This document shows, in pieces, positions 1-11,598 of a stretch of 19,033 nucleotides of DNA. The translations under genes were made by a program, and so were the position numbers. The notes under the pieces are model-generated. The model was not told where the DNA came from, made no database searches, and worked only from the letters and a program-made list of their open reading frames with translations. The DNA comes from a virus (lineage: Duplodnaviria > Heunggongvirae > Uroviricota > Caudoviricetes), in the IMG/VR virus record IMGVR_UViG_2681813004_000005, positions 1-19,033 of that record; one strand, written 5' to 3'. Numbering within the stretch: position 1 is the stretch's first letter; every line of letters begins with the position of its first letter.

Positions 1-30
1 TTATTTATTTTTTCAGGTTTTGTAAATTAT

Positions 31-60
31 TTGTTCGTGGTTGTTCCAGGTTGTTCGGTG
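31..60. repeat. Three tandem 10-bp units TTGTTCnnnn (ttgttcgtgg / ttgttccagg / ttgttcggtg); function unknown, possible regulator binding array upstream of the unit-1 capsid operon
   Basis: Read directly: TTGTTC at 31, 41 and 51, exact 10-bp phasing. Confidence 0.8.
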
Positions 61-73
61 ATTCTGGCTGATG

Positions 74-101
74 TTTACATACTGATTTTTATGTATATGT
101 T
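74..101 (+). promoter_or_regulatory. Putative sigma70-like promoter (TTTACA, 16-bp spacer, TATGTT) upstream of the unit-1 capsid gene
   Basis: TTTACA at 74-79 and TATGTT at 96-101 in an AT-rich stretch about 150 bp upstream of the capsid start. Hexamer match only. Confidence 0.25.
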
Positions 102-132
102 GGCGTGTGGCACTCAGACGTGAGCCGCCACA

Positions 133-182
133 ATGCCGCCTGACCCCCTGCGCGATGCCGGGTTGATCTGCGAGATGCCGGG
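133..182. repeat. Three copies of ATGCCG(C/G) at about 21-bp spacing (two copies extend to GATGCCGGG); function unknown
   Basis: Read directly: aATGCCGcc at 133, gATGCCGgg at 155 and 175. Confidence 0.7.
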
Positions 183-250
183 AGTGTCGGGCGGCGCTCC
201 CTCCGTGTTGGTTTCACGTCCTGAATCTTAACCAATACGAGAAAACCTTC

Positions 251-1396
251 ATGAAGAAATTAATCGAACTCCGCCAGCAAAAAACCGCCCTGAAAAACCA
301 GATGCGATCCCTGCTGGAAAAAGCCGACAGTGAAAACCGCAGCCTGAACGATGACGAAGGCAAACAGTTTGATGAACTGCGTGCAAAAGCCGATTCCCTC
401 GACACAGAAATCTCCCGTCTTGAAGCTGTTGCGGATGAAGAACGTAACCAGCCAGGTGTTTCCGTCGAAGAGAAAATCACCAAAGACGAACTACGCTCTT
501 ACATTCTGACCGGGGAAACCCGCAACCTGTCCGGCAGTGTCCCGGCTGATGGTGGTTATACGGTTATCCCGGAACTGAACAGAGAAGTTATGCGTCAGCT
601 TTCTGATGAATCGGTGATGCGTAAAATCTGTACTGTTAAAACCATTCACAGCAATGAATTTAAGCAACTGGTTTCTGCCGGGGGCGCGGTCGTTGAACAC
701 GGTGAAGAAGGTGCAGCACGTAACCAGACGGCAACACCAAAACTGAATGAAGTCAGTATCCGCCTGTATCCGATCTACGCTTACCCGAAAACCACTCAGG
801 AAATTATCGATTTTTCCGAAGTCGATATTATGGGCTGGTTATCTTCTGAAATTGGCGACACTTTCGTTGATACCGAAGAAACGGATCTGGTTTCCGGTGA
901 TGGCGAGAAAAAAGCTAAAGGTTTCCTGGCTTTTCCGCGCACTGCGGATAACGACAAAACCCGTCCTTTCGGTACGCTCCAGACGAAAAAAGTTACTGGC
1001 AGTCTCAGCGCCGACATGCTGATTGACCTGAAATTTACGCTGCGCAATAAGTACCGCAAAAAAGCTGTATGGGTGATGAACTCAAATACAGCCGCCTCCG
1101 CACAAAAACTGAAAAATGCCACTGGTGATTACATCTGGCGCGATCGTTTACAGGCTGGTGATCCTGATTCTCTGCTGGGGCTTCCGGTTGAATATCTGGA
1201 ATTTATGCCGGACGGTGTGATTGCAGTAGGTGACTTTAAGCGCGGTTATTTCATCGTTGACCATGAAACCGGTACGCGTACCCGTCCGGATTTCAGCGAA
1301 CCCGGATTCATTAACATCTATACCCAGAAATATCTGGGCGGTGGTGTGGTGGATTCGAACGCCATCAAGATTCTGGAAATTCAGGCTGGCAAGTAA
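251..1396 (+). CDS. Major capsid protein, HK97 fold, with N-terminal coiled-coil delta (scaffold) domain
   Basis: 381 aa ORF. N-terminal roughly 100 aa is charged and coiled-coil-like. C-terminal half aligns with the second capsid ORF at 10393-11598 (shared KGFLA, FKRGY.IVD, VDS.AIK.L motifs). Immediately followed by a terminator hairpin. Confidence 0.85.
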   Translation: MKKLIELRQQKTALKNQMRSLLEKADSENRSLNDDEGKQFDELRAKADSLDTEISRLEAVADEERNQPGVSVEEKITKDELRSYILTGETRNLSGSVPADGGYTVIPELNREVMRQLSDESVMRKICTVKTIHSNEFKQLVSAGGAVVEHGEEGAARNQTATPKLNEVSIRLYPIYAYPKTTQEIIDFSEVDIMGWLSSEIGDTFVDTEETDLVSGDGEKKAKGFLAFPRTADNDKTRPFGTLQTKKVTGSLSADMLIDLKFTLRNKYRKKAVWVMNSNTAASAQKLKNATGDYIWRDRLQAGDPDSLLGLPVEYLEFMPDGVIAVGDFKRGYFIVDHETGTRTRPDFSEPGFINIYTQKYLGGGVVDSNAIKILEIQAGK

Positions 1397-1401
1397 TGAG
1401 C

Positions 1402-1426
1402 AAAGGGGGCTTCGGCCTCCTTTTTC
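1402..1426 (+). terminator. Rho-independent terminator after the unit-1 capsid gene
   Basis: AAGGGGGC / TTCG tetraloop / GCCTCCTT stem (8 bp with one G-U pair) followed by TTTTT. Confidence 0.6.
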
Positions 1427-1445
1427 AGCTTTATGGAGTACACCG

Positions 1446-2006
1446 ATGAAAAATACCGATTTTGAAATCCGTACATCTGAACTGACCGCCAGCGATAAAA
1501 AACTGGTGGGTTATGCCGTTCGCTGGAACAGCCTTTCAGAAATTATCTGGGACGAATTCCGCGAACAGTTCACGCCGGGGGCTTTTGCTGACTATCTGGC
1601 GGCGGGTAATGATGTGCGCTGCCTGTATGAGCATGACTATACCCGACTGCTGGGGCGCACCAAATCCGGAACACTGGTACTGACTGAGGACAACACCGGG
1701 CTACGTTTTGAACTGACACCGCCTGATACCCAGCTTGGAAAAGATGTGCTTACGCTGGTGGAGCGTGGCGATATTACAGGAATGAGCTTTGGCTTTCGCG
1801 CATTATGCGAAGAATGGAATATCGCGCAAAAACCGTATCTGCGTACTGTTACCGCTGCAGAACTCAGGGAAATCACGATCACGTCGATGCCTGCTTATCC
1901 CGAATCTGGCGTGGAGATTGCCCACCGTTCGTTGTTTGCACAGCACCCTGAATTACGCCCGGCAGGAAATAATCGTCATCGCTGGGCTGAACTGGCGGGG
2001 TTGTGA
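1446..2006 (+). CDS. Prohead maturation protease, HK97 family
   Basis: First ATG of the 1230-2006 frame that has an RBS (GGAG about 10 nt upstream). Aligns with the protease ORF at 9728-10378. Position next to capsid and portal genes. Confidence 0.75.
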   Translation: MKNTDFEIRTSELTASDKKLVGYAVRWNSLSEIIWDEFREQFTPGAFADYLAAGNDVRCLYEHDYTRLLGRTKSGTLVLTEDNTGLRFELTPPDTQLGKDVLTLVERGDITGMSFGFRALCEEWNIAQKPYLRTVTAAELREITITSMPAYPESGVEIAHRSLFAQHPELRPAGNNRHRWAELAGL

Positions 2007-2007
2007 T

Positions 2008-3231
2008 ATGTGGTGGCCTTTTAGTCGTAAAAAAAGCGATCTGCGTAACCTGTCCATTGATGATTTTCTGGCGCTGTCCGGCGTACCGAATACCGGATCC
2101 GGAGAATATGTTTCTGCCGGGACGGCTGAATCATTGCCTGCTGTGATGAACGCGGTTTCTGTCATCGCTGAGGCGGTGGCCACGATGCCGTGTTATCTGT
2201 ATCTGGTACGTAATGACAAGGGCAGGGAGGCGCGGGAATGGCTGGACAGTCATCCGGTAGATATTCTGCTGAATGAGCAGCCTAATTCATGCCAGACACC
2301 TTACCAGTTTAAACGCACAATGATGCGTCACTGCCTGCTGAACGGTAACGCCTATGCGGTTATTGAGTGGGGGCAGGACGGGCAGCCAAAATCACTTCAT
2401 CCTTATGCGCCGGGGTGTGTTGTACCGGAACGCACAGGCGCACACAAATACCGATATACCATCACCGAACCCTATACAGGAACGGTGCGCACGTATTTAC
2501 AGGAAGAAGTTCTGCATCTCCGCTATGCCTCGGATGATGGCTTTCTGGGGCGTTCCCCCGTCACGATTTGCCGTGAGGCGCTGGGGCTTGGCCTTGCTCA
2601 ACAGCGTCACGGAGCCAGCATTATGAAAGATGGCATGATGGCGGCAGGGATTATCACGTCAGGCGAATGGCTGGACGGCGTGAAAGGTAAACAGGCATTA
2701 GACGCCCTGGAACGCTACAAGGGGGCGAAAAATGCCGGAAAAACGCCAATCCTTGAAGGGGGCATGGATTACAAGCAACTGGGGATGAGTAACCAGGATG
2801 CGGAATGGCTGGCCTCCCGTCGCTTCTCCATTGAAGACATCGCCCGGATGTTCAACGTGTCGCCTATTTTTCTGCAGGAATACAGCAACAGCACCTACAG
2901 CAATTTCAGTGAGGCAAGCCGCGCGTTTCTGACCATGACAATGCGTCCTTGGTTGGCGAACTTCGAACAGCAAATCAAGGCCGCTTTGCTGGTGGCTTCT
3001 CCCGTGCCTGGAACCCGTTATCTGGTTGAGTTTGATTCAGCCGATTTATTACGCGCCACCCCTACCGAACGTTACGCCACGTATGAGAAAGGGATTAAGA
3101 ACGGGATCATCAATCCGAACGAAGCCCGTGAGCGTGAGGGAATGCCGCCGCGTGAAGGTGGTGACGAGTTCAGCCAGGCATGGAAGCAGGAAGTGACAAT
3201 CAGCAAGAACAGTAAGGGCGGTGACGAATGA
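2008..3231 (+). CDS. Portal protein, HK97 family
   Basis: ATG at 2008, 2 nt after the protease stop. The track ORF from 1789 is an upstream artefact in the same frame. N-terminus MWWPFSRKKSD parallels MFFSGLFQRKSD of the second portal; shared C-terminal motifs (SIEDIARMFNV vs QLEEICRLFRV; NPNEAREREGMPPREGGDEF vs SPNDCRDLEDMNPRPGGDVY). Confidence 0.85.
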   Translation: MWWPFSRKKSDLRNLSIDDFLALSGVPNTGSGEYVSAGTAESLPAVMNAVSVIAEAVATMPCYLYLVRNDKGREAREWLDSHPVDILLNEQPNSCQTPYQFKRTMMRHCLLNGNAYAVIEWGQDGQPKSLHPYAPGCVVPERTGAHKYRYTITEPYTGTVRTYLQEEVLHLRYASDDGFLGRSPVTICREALGLGLAQQRHGASIMKDGMMAAGIITSGEWLDGVKGKQALDALERYKGAKNAGKTPILEGGMDYKQLGMSNQDAEWLASRRFSIEDIARMFNVSPIFLQEYSNSTYSNFSEASRAFLTMTMRPWLANFEQQIKAALLVASPVPGTRYLVEFDSADLLRATPTERYATYEKGIKNGIINPNEAREREGMPPREGGDEFSQAWKQEVTISKNSKGGDE

Positions 3232-3566
3232 TAGCCGGAAAGATGCGGGACCGGGTGACGATTATGACATTTACCACACAGCGCCTGCCGTCAGGTGCGA
3301 TCCAGCAGATATGGACGGAAGGGGAAACCCTCTGGGCAGAGGTCAAGGGGATCAGCGGACGGGAATTACTGACCGCAGGCGCAGAAACCGCACCTGCAAC
3401 GATTCGGGTATGGGTTCGCTATCGTGGCGACATATCCGCCGCCAGTCGCCTGAAAGTGCTTACCGGCGCTTTTGCCGGGAGCACGCTTAATATCATCGGG
3501 ATCCCCTTACCTGATGCGAAAAGAACCCGGCTGGAAATTCTGGCAAAGGTGGGTACAGAAAAATGA
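3228..3566 (+). CDS. Head-tail adaptor / head closure protein
   Basis: 112 aa. ATG overlaps the portal stop (ATGA). About 66 of 112 residues identical in an ungapped hand alignment to the ORF at 12163-12501, including the block WAEVKGISGRE and LKVLTGAF. Confidence 0.8.
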   Translation: MIAGKMRDRVTIMTFTTQRLPSGAIQQIWTEGETLWAEVKGISGRELLTAGAETAPATIRVWVRYRGDISAASRLKVLTGAFAGSTLNIIGIPLPDAKRTRLEILAKVGTEK

Positions 3567-3859
3567 CAGCAGAAAAAATAACCCTGGAAGAGGCCAAACT
3601 TCACTGCCGCATAGATGGTAACACAGAAGACACACTGATTCAGGCATACATAAGCGCGGCGCTGGAGGTATGCCAGAAGCATATTGGCAGGCGTTTTGAT
3701 GACGGCCTGGAATTTACCCCTGCAATAAAAATTGGTTGCCTGATGTACATCTCGCAACTGTACGAGTACCGGACAACGCTTGGCGATACCGATACAAAAG
3801 AAATTCCCCTGACGATTTCTGCGCTCTGGTCGGTTTATCGTGATGTGGGGGTGTACTGA
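3563..3859 (+). CDS. Head-tail connector, gp6-like
   Basis: 98 aa. ATGA overlap with the upstream gene. N-terminal TLEEAKLHCRID matches TLEELRVQCRID of the ORF at 11849-12154; weaker similarity further on. Confidence 0.7.
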   Translation: MTAEKITLEEAKLHCRIDGNTEDTLIQAYISAALEVCQKHIGRRFDDGLEFTPAIKIGCLMYISQLYEYRTTLGDTDTKEIPLTISALWSVYRDVGVY

Positions 3860-4299
3860 TGCCGTGGCAACCATTAAGGCGATGCACTGAGCCGGGCTGT
3901 AATAAGCGCGTGAAGTCCGGCAAGTGTGAAGAGCACAGGCGGGCTGCATGGCGTGCAGAGGATGCCAGACGGGGACACCGCCGCGCGCGCGGGTATTCCC
4001 GACAGTGGGACAAATACCGCGCCCTGTACCTGAGCAAAAACCCGTTATGCGTGCGTTGTCTGGCTAAGGGGATTTATACGCCAGCTCTTGTGGTGGATCA
4101 CATCATTCCCATCAATGGCGGCGGTGATGTTCTCTTCTGGCCTGAGTGGAACCACCAGGCATTGTGCCAGACGTGCCACAACCGTAAGACGACACGGGAA
4201 GACCCAGCCACGAAAGCGAACCGTAAGGCGGGTATGTATCGCGAGCAGGAAGAACGGGCGGCACACCGTAACGACTGGATGTATGGCGATGATGACTGA
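3859..4299 (+). CDS. HNH endonuclease, phage packaging-associated (HK97 gp74-like)
   Basis: 146 aa with Cys-rich N-terminus and HNH motif (DHIIP ... N ... CHNRKT). Sits immediately upstream of terS, as in HK97-type cos phages. Start overlaps the previous stop (TGATG). Confidence 0.8.
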   Translation: MPWQPLRRCTEPGCNKRVKSGKCEEHRRAAWRAEDARRGHRRARGYSRQWDKYRALYLSKNPLCVRCLAKGIYTPALVVDHIIPINGGGDVLFWPEWNHQALCQTCHNRKTTREDPATKANRKAGMYREQEERAAHRNDWMYGDDD

Positions 4300-4468
4300 A
4301 CAGGAGCAAAACAGGCTGATACGTGGACTGATAAGGCAGCGTGACTTATGGAAGACACAGGAGACAGGGCACAAAGCCAACAGGACAGGGCGCACAGAAC
4401 GCACCACAGCGAAGCGATTAACCGACCGTGACCGCGAGGTCATGGAATGTTTTCGCAATCGCTGGTGA
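4283..4468 (+). CDS. Hypothetical small Arg-rich protein (about 60 aa)
   Basis: 3' portion of the 4088-4468 frame beginning at ATG 4283 (or 4289/4292), overlapping the HNH stop. No recognisable motif. The 5' part of that frame overlaps HNH and is discounted. Confidence 0.3.
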   Translation: MAMMTEQEQNRLIRGLIRQRDLWKTQETGHKANRTGRTERTTAKRLTDRDREVMECFRNRW

Positions 4469-4587
4469 GGCCGTCAGAGGGGGTGGGGGAGGTTTTCAGG
4501 ACAAAACCGTCCCTGCCGGACACCGACCGCCTCCTCAAATTTTTGTGCACGGAAATTTTTTTGAAAATAATTGGGCGAAAAAAGAAC

Positions 4588-4944
4588 ATGGCAAGACCAC
4601 CAAAAGCCCCCGCTTACCTGGATGAAATCGCGGTCAGGCAGTGGAAGGAAAAATCGCGCCAGCTTTCCGGGCGGGAAGACCTTACCCCCGCCGACTGGAG
4701 CAATCTGGAGCTGTATTGCGTTAACTACTCCATATACCGCAAAGCCGTCGAAGACCTTGCCACGCGCGGGTTCAGCATTGTTAACAGTCAGGGCAGCGAG
4801 AGCAGAAACCCCGCCCTGAGCGCAAAGGCTGACGCTGAAAGAATAATGATCAAAATGGCTTCTTTGCTGGGTTTTGACCCGGTAAGCCGCCGCAGAAATC
4901 CACCGGAAACAGAGGAAGAGGACGAGCTTGACCGCCTGGCATGA
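4588..4944 (+). CDS. terS: Terminase small subunit, P27 family
   Basis: Internal ATG at 4588 gives N-terminus MARPPKAPAYLDE, typical of P27-family TerS. Sits between HNH and terL. The track ORF from 4447 is an upstream extension. Confidence 0.75.
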   Translation: MARPPKAPAYLDEIAVRQWKEKSRQLSGREDLTPADWSNLELYCVNYSIYRKAVEDLATRGFSIVNSQGSESRNPALSAKADAERIMIKMASLLGFDPVSRRRNPPETEEEDELDRLA

Positions 4945-6607
4945 GTACGCAGAAGGCGTAAAAAACGGCAAAATTACGGCCTGTAAACGACTGAAACAGG
5001 CCGTTAAACGGTATTTTTCTGACCTTGAAAACCCCCTTTACACGTTCGATCCGGAGGTCGTGGAGCGGTTTATTGCCTTTTCCAGGGTGTGTCCGCACGT
5101 AAAAGGCGCAATGCGCGGTAGCCCCATTGAGCTGGAGCCGTGGCAGCAGTTCGCCTTTGCGTGCATCCTGGGCTTTAAGGTTAAGGCCACCGGACGGCGC
5201 AAATACACCAGCGCATTCATTGAAGTGCCGCGAAAAAATGCCAAATCCACGGTCGCCGCTATCCTGGCTAACTGGTTTCTGGTTATGGAAAACGGGCAGC
5301 AGGATATTTACACCGCCGCCGTGAGTCGTGATCAGGCGCGGATCGTGTTTGATGATGCGCGTCAGATGTGCCTTTTATCCCGACCGTTACGAAAGCGGGT
5401 AAATATTCAGGCACACAAGGTGATACACCCGAAAACCAACAGCCTGTTAAAGCCACTGGCAGCAAAAGCGGCAACCATTGAGGGGACAAACCCGAGTCTT
5501 GCCATTGTGGATGAATATCACCTGCACCCAGACAACGGGGTTTATTCCGCGCTTGAACTGGGAATGGGGGCGCGTCCGGAGGGGTTATTATTTGCCATCA
5601 CCACATCGGGGAGCAACGTTGTTTCAGCCTGTAAACAACACTACGACTATTGCTGCCAGATACTGGATGGTGAAGAGGTGAACGAATCCATGTTCGTGCT
5701 GATTTACGAGCTGGATGATGAAAGCGAGGTTGACGATCCGGCGATGTGGATAAAGGCGAATCCAAATATCGATGTTTCCGTCGATCGTGAAAAACTGGCC
5801 TCAACCATCCAGAAAGCGCGGGGTATTCCGTCGCAGTGGGTGGAGATGATGACAAAGCGCTTTAATATCTGGTGTCAGGGGGCTACGCCGTGGATGGGTA
5901 ACGGTGCATGGGCTGAGTGTGCCGGAACGTTCGCGGAGGCGGATTTATACGGGCAGGAGTGCTACGCGGGGCTGGACTTATCATCAACCAGCGATATTTT
6001 TTCAACAAATGATATTTCAAGCGTGTGTTATGCCTTTCCGGTTGGTAAAACCATCATGCTGGTTTCCCGTCATTATCTGCCGGAGCAGCAGCTACAGAAT
6101 CCCGCCAATAAAAACCGCGCCATCTATCGCCAGTGGGCAAAATCGGGCTGGATACGCACAACGCCAGGCGACTGTATTGATTACGACCGTATCAGGGATG
6201 ACATCATGAAGGACGCGGAAAATTTTAATATCCGGCTGGTGGGCTTCGATACATGGAACGCCACGCACCTGATGACGCAGCTACAGGGCGCAGGATTTGA
6301 GGTGGAGCCGTTCCCGCAAACATACCTTCGTTTCAGTCCGGCGGCGAAATCGTTCGAAGTTTTTGTTAACCGGAAGGTGATTGTGCATCGTGGCGATCCG
6401 GTGCTGGCCTGGTCAATGAGTAATGTTGTGATGCAGAGTGACGCGAACGCCAATATCAAGCCGAACAAGAAAAAATCATCCAACAAGATAGACCCGAGCG
6501 TTGCGGCTCTGATGGCGTTTGGCACATTCCAGGCAGAGCATGAGGAATTTGCATTTGATATGAGCGACAGCCACAAAGAGCGACTTGCGGCGTTTGATGG
6601 GGTATGA
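4928..6607 (+). CDS. terL: Terminase large subunit (ATPase plus nuclease)
   Basis: 559 aa. The only in-frame start after the upstream stop is TTG at 4928, with a GAGGAAGAGG purine tract before it; overlaps the terS end. C-terminal half aligns with the terL remnant at 7572-8315. Confidence 0.85.
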   Translation: MTAWHEYAEGVKNGKITACKRLKQAVKRYFSDLENPLYTFDPEVVERFIAFSRVCPHVKGAMRGSPIELEPWQQFAFACILGFKVKATGRRKYTSAFIEVPRKNAKSTVAAILANWFLVMENGQQDIYTAAVSRDQARIVFDDARQMCLLSRPLRKRVNIQAHKVIHPKTNSLLKPLAAKAATIEGTNPSLAIVDEYHLHPDNGVYSALELGMGARPEGLLFAITTSGSNVVSACKQHYDYCCQILDGEEVNESMFVLIYELDDESEVDDPAMWIKANPNIDVSVDREKLASTIQKARGIPSQWVEMMTKRFNIWCQGATPWMGNGAWAECAGTFAEADLYGQECYAGLDLSSTSDIFSTNDISSVCYAFPVGKTIMLVSRHYLPEQQLQNPANKNRAIYRQWAKSGWIRTTPGDCIDYDRIRDDIMKDAENFNIRLVGFDTWNATHLMTQLQGAGFEVEPFPQTYLRFSPAAKSFEVFVNRKVIVHRGDPVLAWSMSNVVMQSDANANIKPNKKKSSNKIDPSVAALMAFGTFQAEHEEFAFDMSDSHKERLAAFDGV

Positions 6608-6888
6608 CGAGAATGAGCGAAACCGAACTACTAAAAATAATCCGCCGCGTTACCGGAATCAGCCAGGAAGCAGGCAAACAGGAGGCCACGCAGCCGGACA
6701 GCGTGATAGCCGAAAATTACGCGCGTGTGGTGGCTGAGGTGATGCGCCGTGACGGTATCGAGCTTAACGGCGTGGATATACGCACCAGAGTTCTGGAGTT
6801 GTTGTCATATCGTCGCCGCGTGGAGATGTACCAGGAGAAAGAAAAAATTACTTACCACTGGAAGAAGCCGGAGCGGTTACGACGTTAA
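6604..6888 (+). CDS. Hypothetical protein (94 aa), last gene of unit 1
   Basis: ATGA overlap with the terL stop suggests translational coupling. No motif recognised. Confidence 0.45.
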   Translation: MTRMSETELLKIIRRVTGISQEAGKQEATQPDSVIAENYARVVAEVMRRDGIELNGVDIRTRVLELLSYRRRVEMYQEKEKITYHWKKPERLRR

Positions 6889-6890
6889 CT

Positions 6891-6940
6891 TGTGGTGACA
6901 TACCGTGACGGAGAGTGACAACCAGTGACACACAGTGACA
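6891..6940. repeat. Five GTGAC(A/G) hexamers at exact 10-bp phasing; candidate protein-binding array (integrase arm-type, terminase or regulator sites)
   Basis: Read directly: GTGACA 6895, GTGACG 6905, GTGACA 6915, 6925, 6935, each preceded by a variable 4-mer. Starts 3 nt after the stop of the 6604-6888 ORF. Confidence 0.85.
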
Positions 6941-7001
6941 AAAAGACGGTATTTAAATAGAGTGGGTGTTTAATACCCCCCGTTTTTTTTCGTGTGGTGC
7001 A

Positions 7002-7016
7002 TGGTCAAAATGACCA
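7002..7016. promoter_or_regulatory. Perfect palindrome TGGTCA-AAA-TGACCA, operator-like
   Basis: Read directly; 6-bp arms, 3-bp spacer, preceded by a T8 run at 6983-6990. Confidence 0.5.
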
Positions 7017-7142
7017 CGGAGAAGATACGCACCGAAGCAGAACAATTACCGTAGGTTAAAGCGACAGTATTCACACCAGCAACCTGATTATCAATTTTCA
7101 GCCGTTCGGTGGCATCACTGGCCCCATTTTCCTGATGGGGTT

Positions 7143-7193
7143 GCGGGTTATTTTGGGGGTATTTGCGGGTTATTTTGAATGTCTCGCGGGTTA
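7143..7193. repeat. Three direct copies of GCGGGTTA at 21-22 bp spacing
   Basis: Copies at 7143, 7165, 7186; the first two sit in a longer unit TTTGCGGGTTATTTT. Confidence 0.85.
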
Positions 7194-7270
7194 CGCTTTG
7201 GCTAATATTCAAACGCATCATTTTTTAACGCATTGATATTAAAGAATAAAAAATACTTAGCAAGCGAAGA

Positions 7271-7295
7271 TAACCCGCTAACCCGCATAACCCGC
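7271..7295. repeat. Three tandem copies of TAACCCGC (reverse complement of GCGGGTTA) at 8-9 bp spacing
   Basis: Copies at 7271, 7279, 7288. With the 7143-7193 array they form an inverted pair around an AT-rich core of about 75 bp (7194-7270). Confidence 0.85.
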
Positions 7296-7571
7296 ACTGT
7301 TTTGTATATATATACGAAAAATTGCATTCAGGGGGGTGATCGAAATTTCTACTGCCTCTTATCTCTTTGAGTGCTCACCTCGTCAGATTGTTACACACAA
7401 GAAATAAAAAATGCTTCGCGATGGTAGGTCGAATCACTGTATCAAAAAACGGTGTGTATCAGCATTAAAACAATACAGATACGTGTATTGCGCTGTGTAT
7501 TGCTTGATGATTTATAAAGACTGTTTTTTCATGTTAAACGATTGATATACAGGTGATTTTAAAAAACTTGA

Positions 7572-8315
7572 AATATTCTTACCAAACACATGAATGTGTG
7601 GGTCACTGCCGAGTCTGCCTGGATGGACATGATTAAGTGGGAGAAATGCGAATACATTGCCCCACGACATGAGCTGAAAACGTATCCCATGTGGGTCGGC
7701 GTTGACCTTGCTCATAAGATTGATATCTGTGCGGCGGCAAAACTCTGGCGAACGGATAACGGGCATGTTCATGCCGATTTTAAATTCTGGCTCCCGGAAG
7801 GACGGCTGGAACGATGCTCGCGGCAGCAGGCAGAACTTTACCGGAAGTGGGCGGAGATGGATAAGCTGATTCTGACGGATGGTGATGTTATCGATCATGC
7901 TCAGATAAAAAGTGACTTACTGGAATGGATTGGTGGTGAAAACCTCAGGGAACTGGGATTTGACCCGTGGAGCGCGATGCAGTTCAGCCTGGCACTGGCT
8001 GAAGAAGGGATACCGCTGGTGGAGGTTCCGCAGACGGTTCGCAATCTGTCAGAGGCCATGAAGGAAACGGAATCACTGGTCTATGCCGGACGTTTCCATC
8101 ACAGCAATCATCCGGTCATGAACTGGATGATGTCTAACGTTACGGTAAAACCGGACAAAAACGACAATATCTTCCCGAATAAATCCACGCCGGAAGCCAA
8201 AATCGACGGCCCTGTTGCGATGTTTACAGCGATGAGCCGGATGCTGGTCAATGGTGGTGAACCGGAGCCGGATCTGTCTGAACATCTGGTCAGCGTGGGC
8301 ATCCGCTCGCTTTAA
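7572..8315 (+). pseudogene. terL: 5'-truncated terminase large subunit (C-terminal nuclease-domain remnant only)
   Basis: Frame is open only from 7572 (TGA at 7569-7571). The 241 aa from ATG 7590 align with the C-terminal part of the unit-1 TerL (LYRKWAEMDKLILTDGDVIDH vs IYRQWAKSGWIRTTPGDCIDY; HPVMNWMMSNV vs DPVLAWSMSNV). ATPase domain and upstream terS are absent; AT-rich non-coding DNA lies upstream. Confidence 0.8.
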
Positions 8316-9750: not shown

Positions 9751-10378
9751 TGTACCGCTGAGTCTGAAATCTGTCAGTGACTCAGGTGAGTTTGAAGGGT
9801 ATGGCTCCGTCTTTGGTGTAAAGGACAGTCACGATGATGTGGTGATGTCCGGGGCATTTGCTGCTTCCCTGCGGGCGTGGAGTGACAGAAAAGCGTTACC
9901 TGCGCTGCTCTGGCAGCACCGCATGGATGAACCCATCGGTGTTTACACCGAAATGAAGGAAGACGATGTCGGGCTTTACGTCAGGGGACGGTTGCTTATT
10001 GATGATGATCCCCTCGCAAAACGCGCACATGCACACATGAAGGCCGGTTCGTTAACCGGCCTTTCTATTGGGTACGTCCTGAAAGACTGGGAATACGACC
10101 GGAGCAAAGAAGCCTTTCTGCTGAAAGAAATCGACCTCTGGGAAGTCAGCCTGGTGACGTTCCCGTCTAACGACGAGGCGCGGATCAGCGACGTCAAGAA
10201 CGCACTGGCCCGCGGGGAAATCCCCGAACAGAAAAAAATTGAAAGAGTCCTGCGTGATGTCGGACTCTCCCGTACCCAGGCCAAAGCATTCATGGCCGGG
10301 GGCTATGGCGCACTGTCCCTGCGCGACGCTGAGGATGTGGGCTCTGCACTGAATGCACTGAAAAATCTGAACTTCTAA
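9728..10378 (+). CDS. Prohead maturation protease, HK97 family (prophage)
   Basis: ATG at 9728 with AAGGA RBS; overlaps the portal 3' end. The track ORF from 9692 is an upstream extension. Position between portal and capsid. Confidence 0.75.
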   Translation: MQTKQRLDVPLSLKSVSDSGEFEGYGSVFGVKDSHDDVVMSGAFAASLRAWSDRKALPALLWQHRMDEPIGVYTEMKEDDVGLYVRGRLLIDDDPLAKRAHAHMKAGSLTGLSIGYVLKDWEYDRSKEAFLLKEIDLWEVSLVTFPSNDEARISDVKNALARGEIPEQKKIERVLRDVGLSRTQAKAFMAGGYGALSLRDAEDVGSALNALKNLNF

Positions 10379-10392
10379 TCAGGAGAAATACG

Positions 10393-11598
10393 ATGGCGGT
10401 TGATATTAAAGATGTCGAACAGGTCGCGCAGGAGCTGCAGCAGAAGTTTGACGACTTCAAAGCAAAGAACGACAAGCGCGTGGATGCGATTGAGCAGGAA
10501 AAAGGCAAACTTGCCGGGCAGGTGGAAACCCTGAACGGGAAACTCAGCGAGCTGGAAAACCTCAAAAGCGATCTTGAAAAAGAGCTGCTTGAGCTGAAAC
10601 GTCCGGCAGGTGGTGCGCAGAATAAACTGGCCACCGAGCATAAAGAAGCGTTTGTGGGCTTCCTGCGTAAAGGCCGTGAAGATGGTCTGCGCGATCTGGA
10701 GCGTAAGGCATTACAGGTGGGCACCGATGAAGACGGTGGCTATGCCGTGCCGGAAGCGCTGGATCGCAACATTCTTAACCTGCTGAAAGATGAAGTGGTG
10801 ATGCGCCAGGAAGCCACGGTGATCACCGTTGGCGGTTCCGACTACAAAAAACTGGTGAATCTGGGCGGTACGGCTTCCGGATGGGTTGGCGAGACTGACG
10901 CGCGCTCCCAGACTGCCACTTCCAGACTGGGGCTGATTGAACCTTTCATGGGGGAAATCTACGGTAACCCGCAGGCCACCCAGAAAATGCTGGATGATGC
11001 CTTTTTCAACGTGGAGGCCTGGATCAACAGCGAGCTGGCAACCGAATTTGCCGAACAGGAAGAAATTGCCTTTACCACCGGCGATGGTACCAAGAAGCCG
11101 AAAGGGTTCCTGGCGTATGAATCCACTGATGAAACCGACAAGGTCCGGGCGTTCGGCAAACTTCAGCATATTGTATCCGGCGAAGCGACGACGGTGACTG
11201 CAGATGCTATTATCAAACTGATTTACACGCTGCGTAAGGCACACCGCACCGGCGCGAAGTTCATGATGAACAACAACAGCCTGTTTGCCATTCGTCTGCT
11301 GAAAGACACCGAGGGTAACTATCTGTGGCGTCCGGGGCTGGAGCTGGGGCAGCCGTCCTCTCTGGCGGGTTACGGTATCGCTGAAAACGAACAGATGCCG
11401 GATATTGCCGCTGATGCGAAAGCCATTGCATTTGGTAACTTCAAACGGGGTTACACCATCGTTGACCGTATCGGTACCCGCATTCTGCGTGACCCGTACA
11501 CCAATAAACCGTTTGTCGGTTTTTATACCACCAAGCGCACCGGCGGCATGCTGGTCGATTCGCAGGCCATCAAACTGCTGAAGATTGCAGCGGCGTAA
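10393..11598 (+). CDS. Major capsid protein, HK97 fold with delta domain (prophage)
   Basis: 401 aa. AGGAG RBS. Coiled-coil N-terminus, C-terminal motifs shared with the unit-1 capsid protein. Followed by a hairpin. Confidence 0.9.
   Translation: MAVDIKDVEQVAQELQQKFDDFKAKNDKRVDAIEQEKGKLAGQVETLNGKLSELENLKSDLEKELLELKRPAGGAQNKLATEHKEAFVGFLRKGREDGLRDLERKALQVGTDEDGGYAVPEALDRNILNLLKDEVVMRQEATVITVGGSDYKKLVNLGGTASGWVGETDARSQTATSRLGLIEPFMGEIYGNPQATQKMLDDAFFNVEAWINSELATEFAEQEEIAFTTGDGTKKPKGFLAYESTDETDKVRAFGKLQHIVSGEATTVTADAIIKLIYTLRKAHRTGAKFMMNNNSLFAIRLLKDTEGNYLWRPGLELGQPSSLAGYGIAENEQMPDIAADAKAIAFGNFKRGYTIVDRIGTRILRDPYTNKPFVGFYTTKRTGGMLVDSQAIKLLKIAAA

What the first reader, a model, noticed from the sequence alone, without database searches (positions are those of the whole stretch)
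1..250. Two phased repeat arrays upstream of the unit-1 capsid gene, mirroring the junction architecture
Upstream of the capsid gene there is a 10-bp-phased TTGTTC array (x3, 31-60) followed by an ATGCCG array at about 21-bp spacing (x3, 133-182). The junction before the prophage module has the same arrangement (a 10-bp-phased array, then a 21-bp-spaced array) with different motifs. This may reflect a shared control logic for head-gene expression or packaging initiation, or it may be coincidence. The window starts at position 1, so the region is probably truncated.
Basis: seen in the sequence. Interest (0 to 1): 0.45.

Follow-up and report, generated by a model that had tools for sequence, protein, structure and literature searches.

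The report
Satellite capsid-operon promoter and structured leader
The first 250 bases are the promoter and folded mRNA leader of the capsid operon of a phage satellite (a capsid-forming PICI): the TTGTTC triplet is a widely conserved, undescribed upstream control element, the ATGCCG repeat is just part of an RNA hairpin, and neither is related to the repeats at the downstream junction.

Summary
Both arrays are at the stated coordinates. TTGTTC sits at 31/41/51 with exact 10-bp phasing. ATGCCG sits at 133/155/175. They are different kinds of thing.

"Unit 1" is not a prophage. It is the late half of a capsid-forming PICI, embedded in the terL gene of an HK97-like prophage (a known "helper-embedded PICI" arrangement).

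The TTGTTC triplet lies at about -77 to -52 of a conserved sigma-70-type promoter: TTTACA at 74-79, a 16-nt spacer, TATGTT at 96-101. The block 8-56 is 90-97% conserved in about 500 E. coli genomes, while the sequence after it diverges. In 48 independent promoter variants the hexamer cores are conserved (1.27 bit) and the 4-nt spacers are not (0.44 bit). I read the units as phased protein-binding sites.

Sister islands carry near-identical arrays on both att arms and in the int-alpA spacer. This points to the excisionase/activator AlpA as the binder. Module-shuffling evidence argues against a strictly cognate AlpA, so the binder is unresolved.

The ATGCCG copies lie in the transcribed leader. 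One is in the stem, and two are in a 20-bp tandem duplication, of a hairpin whose stem covaries across lineages.

The junction arrays are PICI ori-type iterons, att-arm motifs and an unexplained GTGAC x5 array. The "mirroring" is coincidental.

The parts
19..34 (+). Conserved block TTTGTAAATTATTTGT, overlapping the first TTGTTC unit. It is the most conserved upstream element. The core TGTAAAT is kept in all promoter families.
   Evidence: Invariant between window-type and EDL933-type islands. In 92 unique promoters anchored independently on the leader, its mean information is 1.56 bit in family A. GTAAATTATTTGTTC fits the pattern G-N3-A-N5-T-N3-C in 67 of 92 variants, against 2.3% background.
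31..56 (+). Three TTGTTC units 10 bp apart (31-36, 41-46, 51-56). Their centres lie at about -74.5, -64.5 and -54.5 of the predicted start. I read them as helically phased protein-binding sites of the upstream activating region.
   Evidence: unique in the window. (block 8-56 is 90-97% conserved in about 500 E. coli genomes). (cores 1.27 bit, spacers 0.44 bit in 48 variants). (near-identical arrays on the att arms and in the int-alpA spacer of sister islands).
74..101 (+). Sigma-70-type promoter: -35 TTTACA (74-79), 16-nt spacer, -10 TATGTT (96-101). The predicted start is at about 107-109; this is inferred, not mapped.
   Evidence: Consensus scan (L001 12074-12101 = window 74-101). Conserved at fixed distance in all variants, with -35 at 1.84 bit and -10 at 1.66 bit.
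106..132 (+). Leader hairpin HP1 (GTGGCACTCAGACGTGAGCCGCCAC) at the predicted 5' end of the mRNA. Its apex is complementary to the conserved TCACGTC at 209-220.
   Evidence: Fold. Nine pairs, three of them with compensatory changes in the EDL933 type. An exact 20-mer from it retrieves 118 IMG/VR loci.
135..195 (+). Leader hairpin HP2. The basal stem is GCCGCCTGAC / GTCGGGCGGC. The apical part holds the tandem 15-mers at 148-162 and 168-182. The three ATGCCG copies (133, 155, 175) lie in or next to it.
   Evidence: Inverted repeat I3 and direct repeat D2. Fold z-score -3.55. A basal stem at this position occurs in 66 of 70 unique leaders, with at least 10 different complementary sequences.
202..242 (+). 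Leader hairpin HP3. It contains the conserved TGGTTTCACGTC (209-220) just upstream of the weak ribosome-binding region of the capsid gene.
   Evidence: Alternative long-range pairing with HP1 is predicted in some variants.
251..1396 (+). Major capsid gene (HK97 type), first gene of the cf-PICI morphogenesis/packaging operon.
   Evidence: ORF. Annotated as phage major capsid protein in 99.7% identical genomes. 75% amino-acid identity to the EcCIEDL933 capsid.

Best explanation
Window 1-250 is the promoter and 5' leader of the capsid/packaging operon of a capsid-forming phage-inducible chromosomal island (cf-PICI).

Shown:
- A sigma-70-type promoter (TTTACA, 16 nt, TATGTT at 74-101) is conserved at fixed geometry in every related island.
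- It is preceded by a conserved block, TTTGTAAATTA plus three 10-bp-phased units. The window carries the most regular version of these units (TTGTTC x3).
- It is followed by a leader of about 140 nt that folds into three hairpins.

Inferred:
- The three TTGTTC units, on one face of the helix at about -77 to -52, are binding sites for a transcription factor. This factor sets the level of capsid-operon transcription from a class-I-type position.
- The most likely binder is the island's AlpA protein, an excisionase-family regulator. Its overexpression is used to promote EcCIEDL933 reproduction for capsid purification.
- The reason for naming AlpA is that sister islands carry near-identical arrays, with cores kept and spacers free. 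They lie beside the presumed integrase arm sites on both att arms and in the int-alpA spacer. This is the pattern expected of a dual recombination-directionality factor and activator such as P2 Cox, 186 Apl or P4 Vis.
- The binder's identity is the weakest step.

The ATGCCG "array" is not a DNA site array. Copy 1 lies in the 5' strand of the basal stem of leader hairpin HP2. Copies 2 and 3 come from a 20-bp tandem duplication in its apical part.

The junction arrays belong to other functions (ori-type iterons, att-arm motifs) and share no logic with this region.
For: Context:
- The same DNA (99-100% identical) in complete genomes lies between the PICI replication zone and the capsid-protease-portal-connector-HNH-terS-terL genes.

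Promoter:
- It is the only promoter-like site in the kilobase scanned around the intergenic region.
- The -35 and -10 are conserved at 1.84 and 1.66 bit across 48 variants retrieved by an independent anchor.

Array:
- It is unique in the window.
- Block 8-56 is 90-97% conserved in about 500 E. coli genomes, including EDL933, while 57-250 diverges.
- In EDL933-type islands the block starts right after the terminator of the upstream gene.
- Conservation has a 10-bp period, with cores at 1.27 bit and spacers at 0.44 bit.

Link to recombination:
- TUM9757 has arrays at L001 4363-4410 and 19239-19274. Both lie inside the island, as shown by comparison with the empty K-12 site.
- EDL933 has them at L006 5241, at 20469 and at 6661-6620 on the minus strand (24 of 26 bases identical to the capsid array).
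- Shigella shows the same four places.

Literature:
- AlpA is required for cf-PICI induction (bioRxiv 10.1101/2022.09.08.507074).
- AlpA activates transcription in EcCICFT073 (PMC6092414).
- alpA overexpression is used to promote EcCIEDL933 reproduction for capsid purification (bioRxiv 10.1101/2025.02.11.637232, methods).
- RDF binding sites are direct repeats one helical turn apart (PMC7498355).

Leader:
- Fold z-score -3.55.
- The HP2 stem is present in 66 of 70 unique leaders, with at least 10 different complementary sequences.
- ATGCCG is absent from EDL933-type leaders.
Against: - There is no transcription start, reporter or binding data. The promoter scan alone is not significant (1 site found, 1.6 expected per kb).
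- AlpA type does not track the array. The identical TTGTTC x3 occurs with three different AlpA types, and type II AlpA occurs with both TTC-type and TAC-type arrays.
- att-arm sequences follow the int-alpA module, not the capsid-array family (L031 vs L137, L210 vs L163).
- In the window's own island type, only a degenerate array is seen on the left arm, and none on the right arm.
- Regions upstream of alpA, the one promoter known to be AlpA-activated in a related PICI, show no similar architecture.
- Family B promoters replace TTC with TAC and carry a terminator-like hairpin over unit 3. The element is therefore plastic.
Confidence: 0.55

Rival explanations
1. The block is a host-factor or factor-independent upstream element. 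A nucleoid protein such as Fis would bind the 15-mer GTAAATTATTTGTTC, and/or the phased T-rich units would bend the DNA. This would boost a promoter that is otherwise constitutive, with no island-specific regulator.
For: - The array family varies independently of the int-alpA module, and the same array serves islands with different AlpA types.
- G-N3-A-N5-T-N3-C is kept in 67 of 92 variants across all families, against 2.3% background.
- The core promoter is fairly good (5/6 and 4/6 matches).
- cf-PICI capsids are reported to form even without an inducing phage (bioRxiv 10.1101/2025.02.11.637232).
Against: - Units 2 and 3 are conserved as hexamer cores at 10-bp spacing, which a 15-bp Fis site or plain curvature does not explain.
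- Near-identical arrays on att arms suggest a dedicated protein.
- The Fis match is a loose pattern, and much of its "conservation" is shared ancestry.
Confidence: 0.25
2. A small regulator encoded just upstream and inherited with the late module binds or acts through the array as the late activator. The candidates are the PerC-family protein or the conserved 74-82-aa "hypX" protein. This would be analogous to Q lying just upstream of late operons.
For: - A PerC-family gene (PF06069) lies within 1.2 kb upstream in TUM9757, KFu019, EDL933, PCN033 and 94-3024.
- Every island with a perfect TTGTTC x3 has PerC, hypX or both.
- A Symbiopectobacterium relative has a Q-like ORF at the same position and no TTGTTC array. 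The Q assignment is by eye.
- PchE, the OI-51 PerC, has no known target (PMC11773190, PMC3378721).
Against: - L113 has the identical promoter and a 99.7% identical capsid but no PerC, even at E=10.
- fis-site islands L013 and L014 lack PerC.
- Several EDL933-type loci lack hypX, and L027 has good arrays with neither protein.
- Neither protein is universal.
- Arrays on att arms are not explained.
Confidence: 0.12
3. The repeats are terminase small-subunit binding sites (cosB-like) and the conserved GC-rich segment after them is the cos cleavage site. The region would then start DNA packaging rather than transcription.
For: - TerS proteins bind phased direct repeats (established knowledge of lambda cosB).
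- The segment GTGGC...GCCAC has partial two-fold symmetry and is very conserved.
- The array is inherited with the late module.
Against: - In HNH-dependent HK97-type systems cos lies between HNH and terS. That 120-nt non-coding spacer (4469-4587) is about 88% conserved between window-type and EDL933-type islands, far more than the capsid leader.
- HP1 and HP2 show compensatory changes, which fit RNA structure rather than a cleavage site.
- The fixed -35/-10 geometry is unexplained by packaging.
Confidence: 0.05
4. The array is the promoter or operator of the divergently transcribed 157-aa accessory gene just upstream of the window, or it is a chance repeat.
For: In the window-type island the start codon of that gene is only about 75 bp from the array.
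Against: - The array is conserved in islands that lack the divergent gene and have a co-oriented gene plus terminator there (EDL933, PCN033, 94-3024).
- There were 0 chance hits in 200 shuffles.
- Conservation is periodic.
Confidence: 0.03

Closest known systems
Dual recombination-directionality factor / transcription regulators: P2 Cox, 186 Apl, P4 Vis (an AlpA-family protein)
   Same: They bind direct repeats one helical turn apart, both at att and at promoters (Apl: PMC7498355). From my own knowledge, P2 Cox boxes upstream of the P4 late promoter PLL activate the satellite, and P4 Vis acts on P4 late promoters. Here, phased units occur at a satellite late promoter, on att arms and in the int-alpA spacer.
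   Different: The motif (TTGTTC) is unrelated to cox boxes. Binding was not tested. The arrays lie on both att arms. AlpA type does not covary with the array.
Capsid-forming PICIs (EcCIEDL933) and helper-embedded PICIs
   Same: Same gene order and a 75% identical capsid. The insertion in a prophage terminase gene, with the doubled TGTATTGC attP motif, matches PMC10111431.
   Different: The cf-PICI and PICI papers I checked by term search (bioRxiv 10.1101/2022.09.08.507074, 10.1101/2025.02.11.637232, PMC6092414, PMC10111431) did not yield a description of the capsid-operon promoter, the TTGTTC block or the leader. A full-text search for the sequences found nothing.
Class I activator sites of winged-helix regulators (OmpR/PhoB-type tandem 10-11-bp half-sites)
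   Same: Three co-oriented hexamers at 10-bp spacing, centred at about -55 to -75, upstream of a -35 element.
   Different: No response regulator is implicated. Resemblances to tor boxes (CTGTTCATAT) or OmpR half-sites are recalled from memory only.
Lambda-type Q / late promoter arrangement
   Same: A regulator gene lies immediately upstream of the late operon, followed by a structured leader. A Symbiopectobacterium relative has a Q-like ORF and a terminator there.
   Different: The window's leader has no U-tract terminator after HP2 and no Q gene. No Rfam family matches.

Membership tests
Capsid-forming PICI (cf-PICI) | Own capsid, protease, portal, connector, HNH, TerS and TerL genes and no tail genes, downstream of int-alpA-primase | tested here: met
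   Window ORFs. TerS is PF05119. Annotations in genomes with 99-100% identical DNA: int, AlpA-family HTH, primase/DUF927, SSB, then capsid to terL. AlpA is PF05930.
Capsid-forming PICI (cf-PICI) | Helper-dependent induction and transfer using only phage tails | not testable with these tools
   Experimental property, shown for EcCIEDL933 in bioRxiv 10.1101/2022.09.08.507074.
Helper-embedded PICI (Tommasini et al. 2023) | [quoted passage not shown] | tested here: met
   KFu019: terL N-terminal part 10258-11286, island, terL C-terminal part 27215-27958. Window 7590-8312 matches PF20441 positions 64-283 of 286.
Helper-embedded PICI (Tommasini et al. 2023) | Doubled motif tgTGTATTGCantgTGTATTGCa on both attP arms | tested here: met
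   Window 7484 and 7496, about 90 bp before the terL fragment. Second copy upstream of int at L005 11417-11440. Motif as given in PMC10111431.
RDF (excisionase-type) binding-site array | Three or more direct repeats spaced one helical turn apart | tested here: met
   31, 41 and 51, exact 10 bp.
RDF (excisionase-type) binding-site array | The same repeats present at the element's attachment-site arms | tested here: inconclusive
   Met in TUM9757-, EDL933- and Shigella-type islands. Only degenerate in the window's own island type. Arms follow the int-alpA module, not the capsid array.
RDF (excisionase-type) binding-site array | Bound by the element's RDF (AlpA) | not testable with these tools
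   Needs EMSA, footprinting or ChIP.
Activator-dependent sigma-70 promoter | -35 and -10 hexamers with 16-18-nt spacing, conserved in relatives | tested here: met
Activator-dependent sigma-70 promoter | Transcription start and dependence on the upstream sites | not testable with these tools
   No TSS or reporter data were found (and the papers read).
cos / terminase recognition site | Located next to terS (between HNH and terS in HK97-type HNH systems) | tested here: not met
   The region is 4.3 kb from terS. The HNH-terS spacer 4469-4587 is the conserved non-coding candidate.
PICI replication-origin iterons (for the junction's 21-bp array) | Sequence homology to the iteron/AT-rich region downstream of the PICI primase | tested here: met
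   Window 7162-7314 is 77% identical over 154 nt to L006 11375-11527, E = 9e-27. GCGGGTTAT / ATAACCCGC iterons are seen in the EDL933 and KFu019 ori regions.
Known RNA families (Rfam 15) for the leader | Match at or near gathering score | tested here: not met
   Only chance-level hits, with E of 0.8 or more.

The most novel reading that the evidence does not exclude
The TTGTTC units are a shared operator of one island protein (AlpA) that couples excision (att arms), int/alpA control and capsid-operon transcription. cf-PICIs would then run a single RDF-activator regulon. Downstream, an undescribed three-hairpin leader with a mutually exclusive long-range pairing (HP1 apex with TCACGTC near the ribosome-binding site) would act as a riboregulator. 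It would set how many capsids are made with and without helper induction.
Probability: 0.3. Interest if true: 0.6.

Novelty: new member of a known kind. Interest (0 to 1): 0.45.

Why it matters
cf-PICIs are of current interest because they build their own capsids and borrow tails from unrelated phages to cross species. How their capsid operon is switched on is not addressed in the cf-PICI papers I checked. They are also reported to make capsids even without an inducing phage.

This work pins down the promoter, a conserved phased operator and a covarying leader RNA. That gives concrete targets for mutagenesis, for finding the regulator and for engineering such islands. It also corrects the framing of the window. 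The window shows a satellite nested in its helper's terminase gene, not two prophage head modules with a common control logic.

Tried and rejected
- PerC as the binder. Rejected as obligatory because L113 and the fis-site islands keep the promoter without PerC.
- Covariation of AlpA recognition helix with array family. None found.
- Covariation of att-arm repeats with the capsid array. None found outside EDL933/TUM9757-type islands.
- Search for the same architecture upstream of alpA. Not found.
- The original E. coli AlpA/IntA locus (CP4-57). It has different repeats (TAGGCCCA) and is uninformative.
- TorI/KplE1 papers, read to find an RDF motif. The motif is not given in the text.
- Rfam scan of 1-400. 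Nothing found.
- MAFFT/RNAalifold on the leaders. It recovers only HP1 because HP2 is too divergent to align, so I replaced it with per-sequence folding.
- Megablast of 1-1400 against GenBank phages. No match.
- The search for related loci on genomes. It returned only 5 loci.
- The first IMG/VR scan was anchored on the 16-mer and so was biased for unit 1. I repeated it with a leader anchor.
- PADLOC and Pfam on the divergent 157-aa gene and on hypX. No hits.
- Full-text search for the three sequences. No paper found.

Full report
**1. What is in the sequence**

TTGTTC occurs at 31-36, 41-46 and 51-56, exactly 10 bp apart. The triple is the only match in the 19-kb window, even with two mismatches allowed. 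None appeared in 200 dinucleotide-preserving shuffles.

ATGCCG occurs at 133, 155 and 175, with spacings of 22 and 20 bp. It is also unique, with no match in the shuffles. Copies 2 and 3 are part of a longer tandem pair, CTGCGnGATGCCGGG, at 148-162 and 168-182 (93% identical).

Both motifs were picked after looking at the sequence. Conservation is therefore the meaningful test, not the shuffle count.

**2. Context: a satellite inside a prophage**

The first 1400 bases are 99-100% identical to chromosomal DNA of many E. coli strains and match nothing in GenBank phages. In those genomes the region lies inside a roughly 15-kb element. Its gene order is:
- integrase
- AlpA-family regulator(s)
- Icd-like gene
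- primase (DUF927 type)
- SSB
- PerC-family regulator
- small hypothetical gene
- the intergenic region under study
- capsid, prohead protease, portal, connector, HNH, TerS, TerL

This is the architecture of capsid-forming PICIs, whose prototype is EcCIEDL933 (bioRxiv 10.1101/2022.09.08.507074). The window's capsid is 75% identical to the EDL933 capsid.

In strain KFu019, which is 100% identical over 1-250, the island splits the terL gene of an HK97-like prophage. Window 7590-8312 is the C-terminal nuclease part of that TerL (PF20441 positions 64-283 of 286). The doubled motif TGTATTGC-N4-TGTATTGC sits at 7484/7496, and a second copy lies upstream of int. Tommasini, Mageeney and Williams described exactly this motif for helper-embedded PICIs (PMC10111431).

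So "unit 1" is a satellite nested in its probable helper. The "junction" is the satellite's right end.

**3. The TTGTTC array is a conserved part of the capsid-operon promoter**

- A distant-mode BLAST of 1-250 hits 523 E. coli genomes. Most, including EDL933, match only positions 8-56, at 90-97% identity.
- An alignment of four island types shows TTTTGTAAATTATTTGTTCGTGGTTGTTCCA(G/C)GTTGTTC invariant. The following 190 bases are only about half identical.
- In EDL933-type islands the block begins directly after the terminator hairpin of the upstream gene. The block is therefore a self-contained unit belonging to the capsid side.
- The only promoter-like site in the kilobase scanned around the intergenic region is TTTACA (74-79), 16 nt, TATGTT (96-101).

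To avoid circularity I retrieved relatives from IMG/VR with an anchor in the leader, GTGGCACTCAGACGTGAGCC. This gave 118 loci and 92 unique upstream 100-mers. All share the same fixed layout:
- a TGTAAAT block
- three 10-bp units
- 13 nt
- a -35 element
- 16 nt
- a -10 element, TATnTT
- the leader

Family A was defined only by its -35, xTTTAC, and has 48 unique variants. Its consensus is tTTGTAAaTta TTTGTtc... ..t.TTC... g.tGTTt... Mean information is 1.27 bit in the hexamer cores and 0.44 bit in the 4-nt spacers. The -35 scores 1.84 bit and the -10 scores 1.66 bit.

Conservation with a 10-bp period is what phased protein-contact sites produce. With a predicted start near 108, the unit centres fall at about -74.5, -64.5 and -54.5. 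This is the zone used by class I activators. The start site is an inference; nothing here maps it.

**4. Who binds the units? Evidence for AlpA**

Sister islands carry the same array elsewhere.

- TUM9757: TTGTTCGTGGTTGTTCGATATTGTTCGTGG lies at L001 19249-19278, and a four-unit version lies at 4363-4410. Each is followed by a doubled GGTGTAGTTAAT.
- Comparison with the empty K-12 site places the true core at ATGATAGTTAT. Both arrays are therefore inside the island, on the two att arms.
- EDL933 and a Shigella island have arrays on both arms. They also have a five-unit array in the int-alpA spacer that matches the capsid array at 24 of 26 bases.
- In these copies the cores are kept and the spacers differ.

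The doubled 12-mers change with integrase clade: GGTGTAGTTAAT, GTGCAGTCAGT, TGTATTGC or TGTATAAACA. They are the better integrase arm-site candidates. That leaves the phased units for an accessory protein.

Recombination-directionality factors bind direct repeats one helical turn apart, and some double as transcription regulators (186 Apl, PMC7498355). From my own knowledge this also applies to P2 Cox and P4 Vis. The relevant facts on AlpA are:
- AlpA (PF05930) belongs to that class.
- It is required for cf-PICI induction (bioRxiv 10.1101/2022.09.08.507074).
- It activates transcription in EcCICFT073 (PMC6092414).
- Its overexpression is used to promote EcCIEDL933 reproduction for capsid purification (bioRxiv 10.1101/2025.02.11.637232).
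- It is the only small DNA-binding protein found in all islands where the locus reaches far enough.

**5. Evidence against a strictly cognate AlpA**

- The identical TTGTTC x3 occurs with three AlpA types that have different recognition helices: CRTTRY, SRSRRW and GRRHRA. Nearly identical type II AlpA proteins occur with TTC-type and with TAC-type (family B) arrays.
- Pairs of loci with the same integrase type and near-identical left arms have different capsid arrays (L031 vs L137; L210 vs L163).
- Regions upstream of alpA show no related architecture.

Three readings fit these facts. The binder may read only the shared features. It may be a host protein; GTAAATTATTTGTTC fits a Fis-like G-N3-A-N5-T-N3-C core in 67 of 92 variants against 2.3% background. 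Or it may be encoded next to the late module.

The PerC-family protein is the obvious neighbour, but it is dispensable for keeping the element. L113 has the same promoter and a 99.7% identical capsid but no PerC. The fis-site islands L013 and L014 also lack it. The 74-82-aa "hypX" protein is not universal either.

I therefore commit to "phased activator sites, AlpA most likely" and rate the AlpA step at about one in three.

**6. The ATGCCG copies belong to a structured leader**

Positions 105-262 fold into three hairpins: HP1 at 106-132, HP2 at 135-195 and HP3 at 202-242. The energy is -60.5 kcal/mol, with a z-score of -3.55 against shuffles.

- HP1 is nearly invariant. It shows three compensatory pairs in the EDL933 type.
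- The HP2 basal stem starts 0-3 nt after HP1 in 66 of 70 unique leaders. It is built from at least ten unrelated complementary sequences, including GCCGCCUGAC/GUCGGGCGGC, GGCCGUCAG/CUGACGGCC, UGUCCACCUGG/CCAGGUGGACA and GAUCCCCCGG/CCGGGGGAUC. That is strong covariation.
- ATGCCG copy 1 lies in the 5' strand of this stem. Copies 2 and 3 are the two halves of a 20-bp tandem duplication in the apical part.
- EDL933-type leaders have no ATGCCG at these places.

The apex of HP1 (CAGACGTGA) is complementary to the conserved TCACGTC at 209-220. In EDL933-type leaders both sides change together (CCAGGACGC / GCGTCCTGG). In some variants the predicted minimum-energy fold is this long-range form. No Rfam family matches. 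The function of the leader is unknown. Options are mRNA stabilisation or translational control.

**7. The junction is not a mirror**

- GTGAC x5 is real, at 6895-6939 with exact 10-bp spacing. It recurs at 98% identity near the end of the Shigella island, but it is absent from KFu019.
- The 21-bp array is GCGGGTTA at 7143, 7165 and 7186, with TAACCCGC at 7271, 7279 and 7288. It is 77% identical over 154 nt to the iteron/AT-rich origin region downstream of the EDL933 primase.
- Next to it lies the HE-PICI att-arm motif.

These elements serve replication and recombination and share no motif with 1-250.

Packaging initiation is also unlikely at 1-250. The 120-nt non-coding spacer between HNH and terS (4469-4587) is about 88% conserved between window-type and EDL933-type islands. 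It sits where HNH-dependent cos phages place cos.

**8. Novelty and verdict**

The PICI papers I checked by term search do not discuss this promoter, the TTGTTC block or the leader. These were bioRxiv 10.1101/2022.09.08.507074, 10.1101/2025.02.11.637232, PMC6092414 and PMC10111431. A full-text search for the sequences found nothing.

The kind of element is familiar: phased upstream sites at a satellite late promoter, followed by a structured leader. This is a new member of a known kind. It has moderate interest for people working on PICI regulation. Its interpretation is right only in that the TTGTTC array probably controls head-gene expression.

Noticed in passing
window 1-7590 (island) and 7590-8315 (terL fragment); L005 10258-27958: The capsid-forming PICI is inserted in, and co-oriented with, the large-terminase gene of an HK97-like prophage and splits it in two. 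The island is therefore both a cf-PICI and a helper-embedded PICI of the terminase site group described in PMC10111431.
   Followed up: yes
window 105-250: The three-hairpin mRNA leader has strong covariation in HP2 (at least 10 different stems in 66 of 70 variants). A conserved alternative pairing links the HP1 apex with TCACGTC near the ribosome-binding site. There is no Rfam match and the function is unknown.
   Followed up: partly
window 6895-6939; L008 16788-16834: GTGAC is repeated five times at exactly 10-bp spacing right after the last late-module ORF. The array is 98% identical in a Shigella EDL933-type island but absent from KFu019. Nothing explains it.
   Followed up: partly
window 7143-7295; L006 11375-11527; L005 18190-18390: A second cluster of GCGGGTTAT / ATAACCCGC iterons with an AT-rich TATATATA stretch lies near the island's right end. 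It is homologous to half of the origin region that lies downstream of the primase in EDL933. The origin-like sequence appears to be split or duplicated in this island type.
   Followed up: partly
window 4469-4587: The non-coding spacer between HNH and terS is about 88% conserved between island types whose capsid leaders have diverged. It has G-rich and C-rich complementary runs. It is a likely cos site.
   Followed up: partly
L001 11483-11956 (just upstream of window position 1); L013 7688-8932; L014 7583-8886: The slot immediately upstream of the capsid promoter holds different, divergently transcribed accessory genes in different islands: a 157-aa protein, a DUF3775 protein and others. This fits the variable region that He et al. 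expect to encode immune systems. The 157-aa protein has no Pfam or PADLOC hit.
   Followed up: partly
L010 9353-9748 (Symbiopectobacterium): A related cf-PICI (capsid 66% identical) has an ORF that looks like a Q antiterminator directly upstream of the capsid gene. A terminator-like hairpin lies in the leader, and there is no TTGTTC array. This suggests a different late-control solution at the same position. The Q assignment is by eye and was not tested.
   Followed up: no
L001 4411-4442 and 19280-19308; L006 5285-5308 and 20508-20531; L014 1238-1262: Doubled 11-12-bp motifs lie on both att arms of non-embedded PICIs: GGTGTAGTTAAT x2 in one clade and GTGCAGTCAGT x2 at the fis site. They parallel the doubled TGTATTGC motif that was reported as unique to helper-embedded PICIs.
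   Followed up: partly
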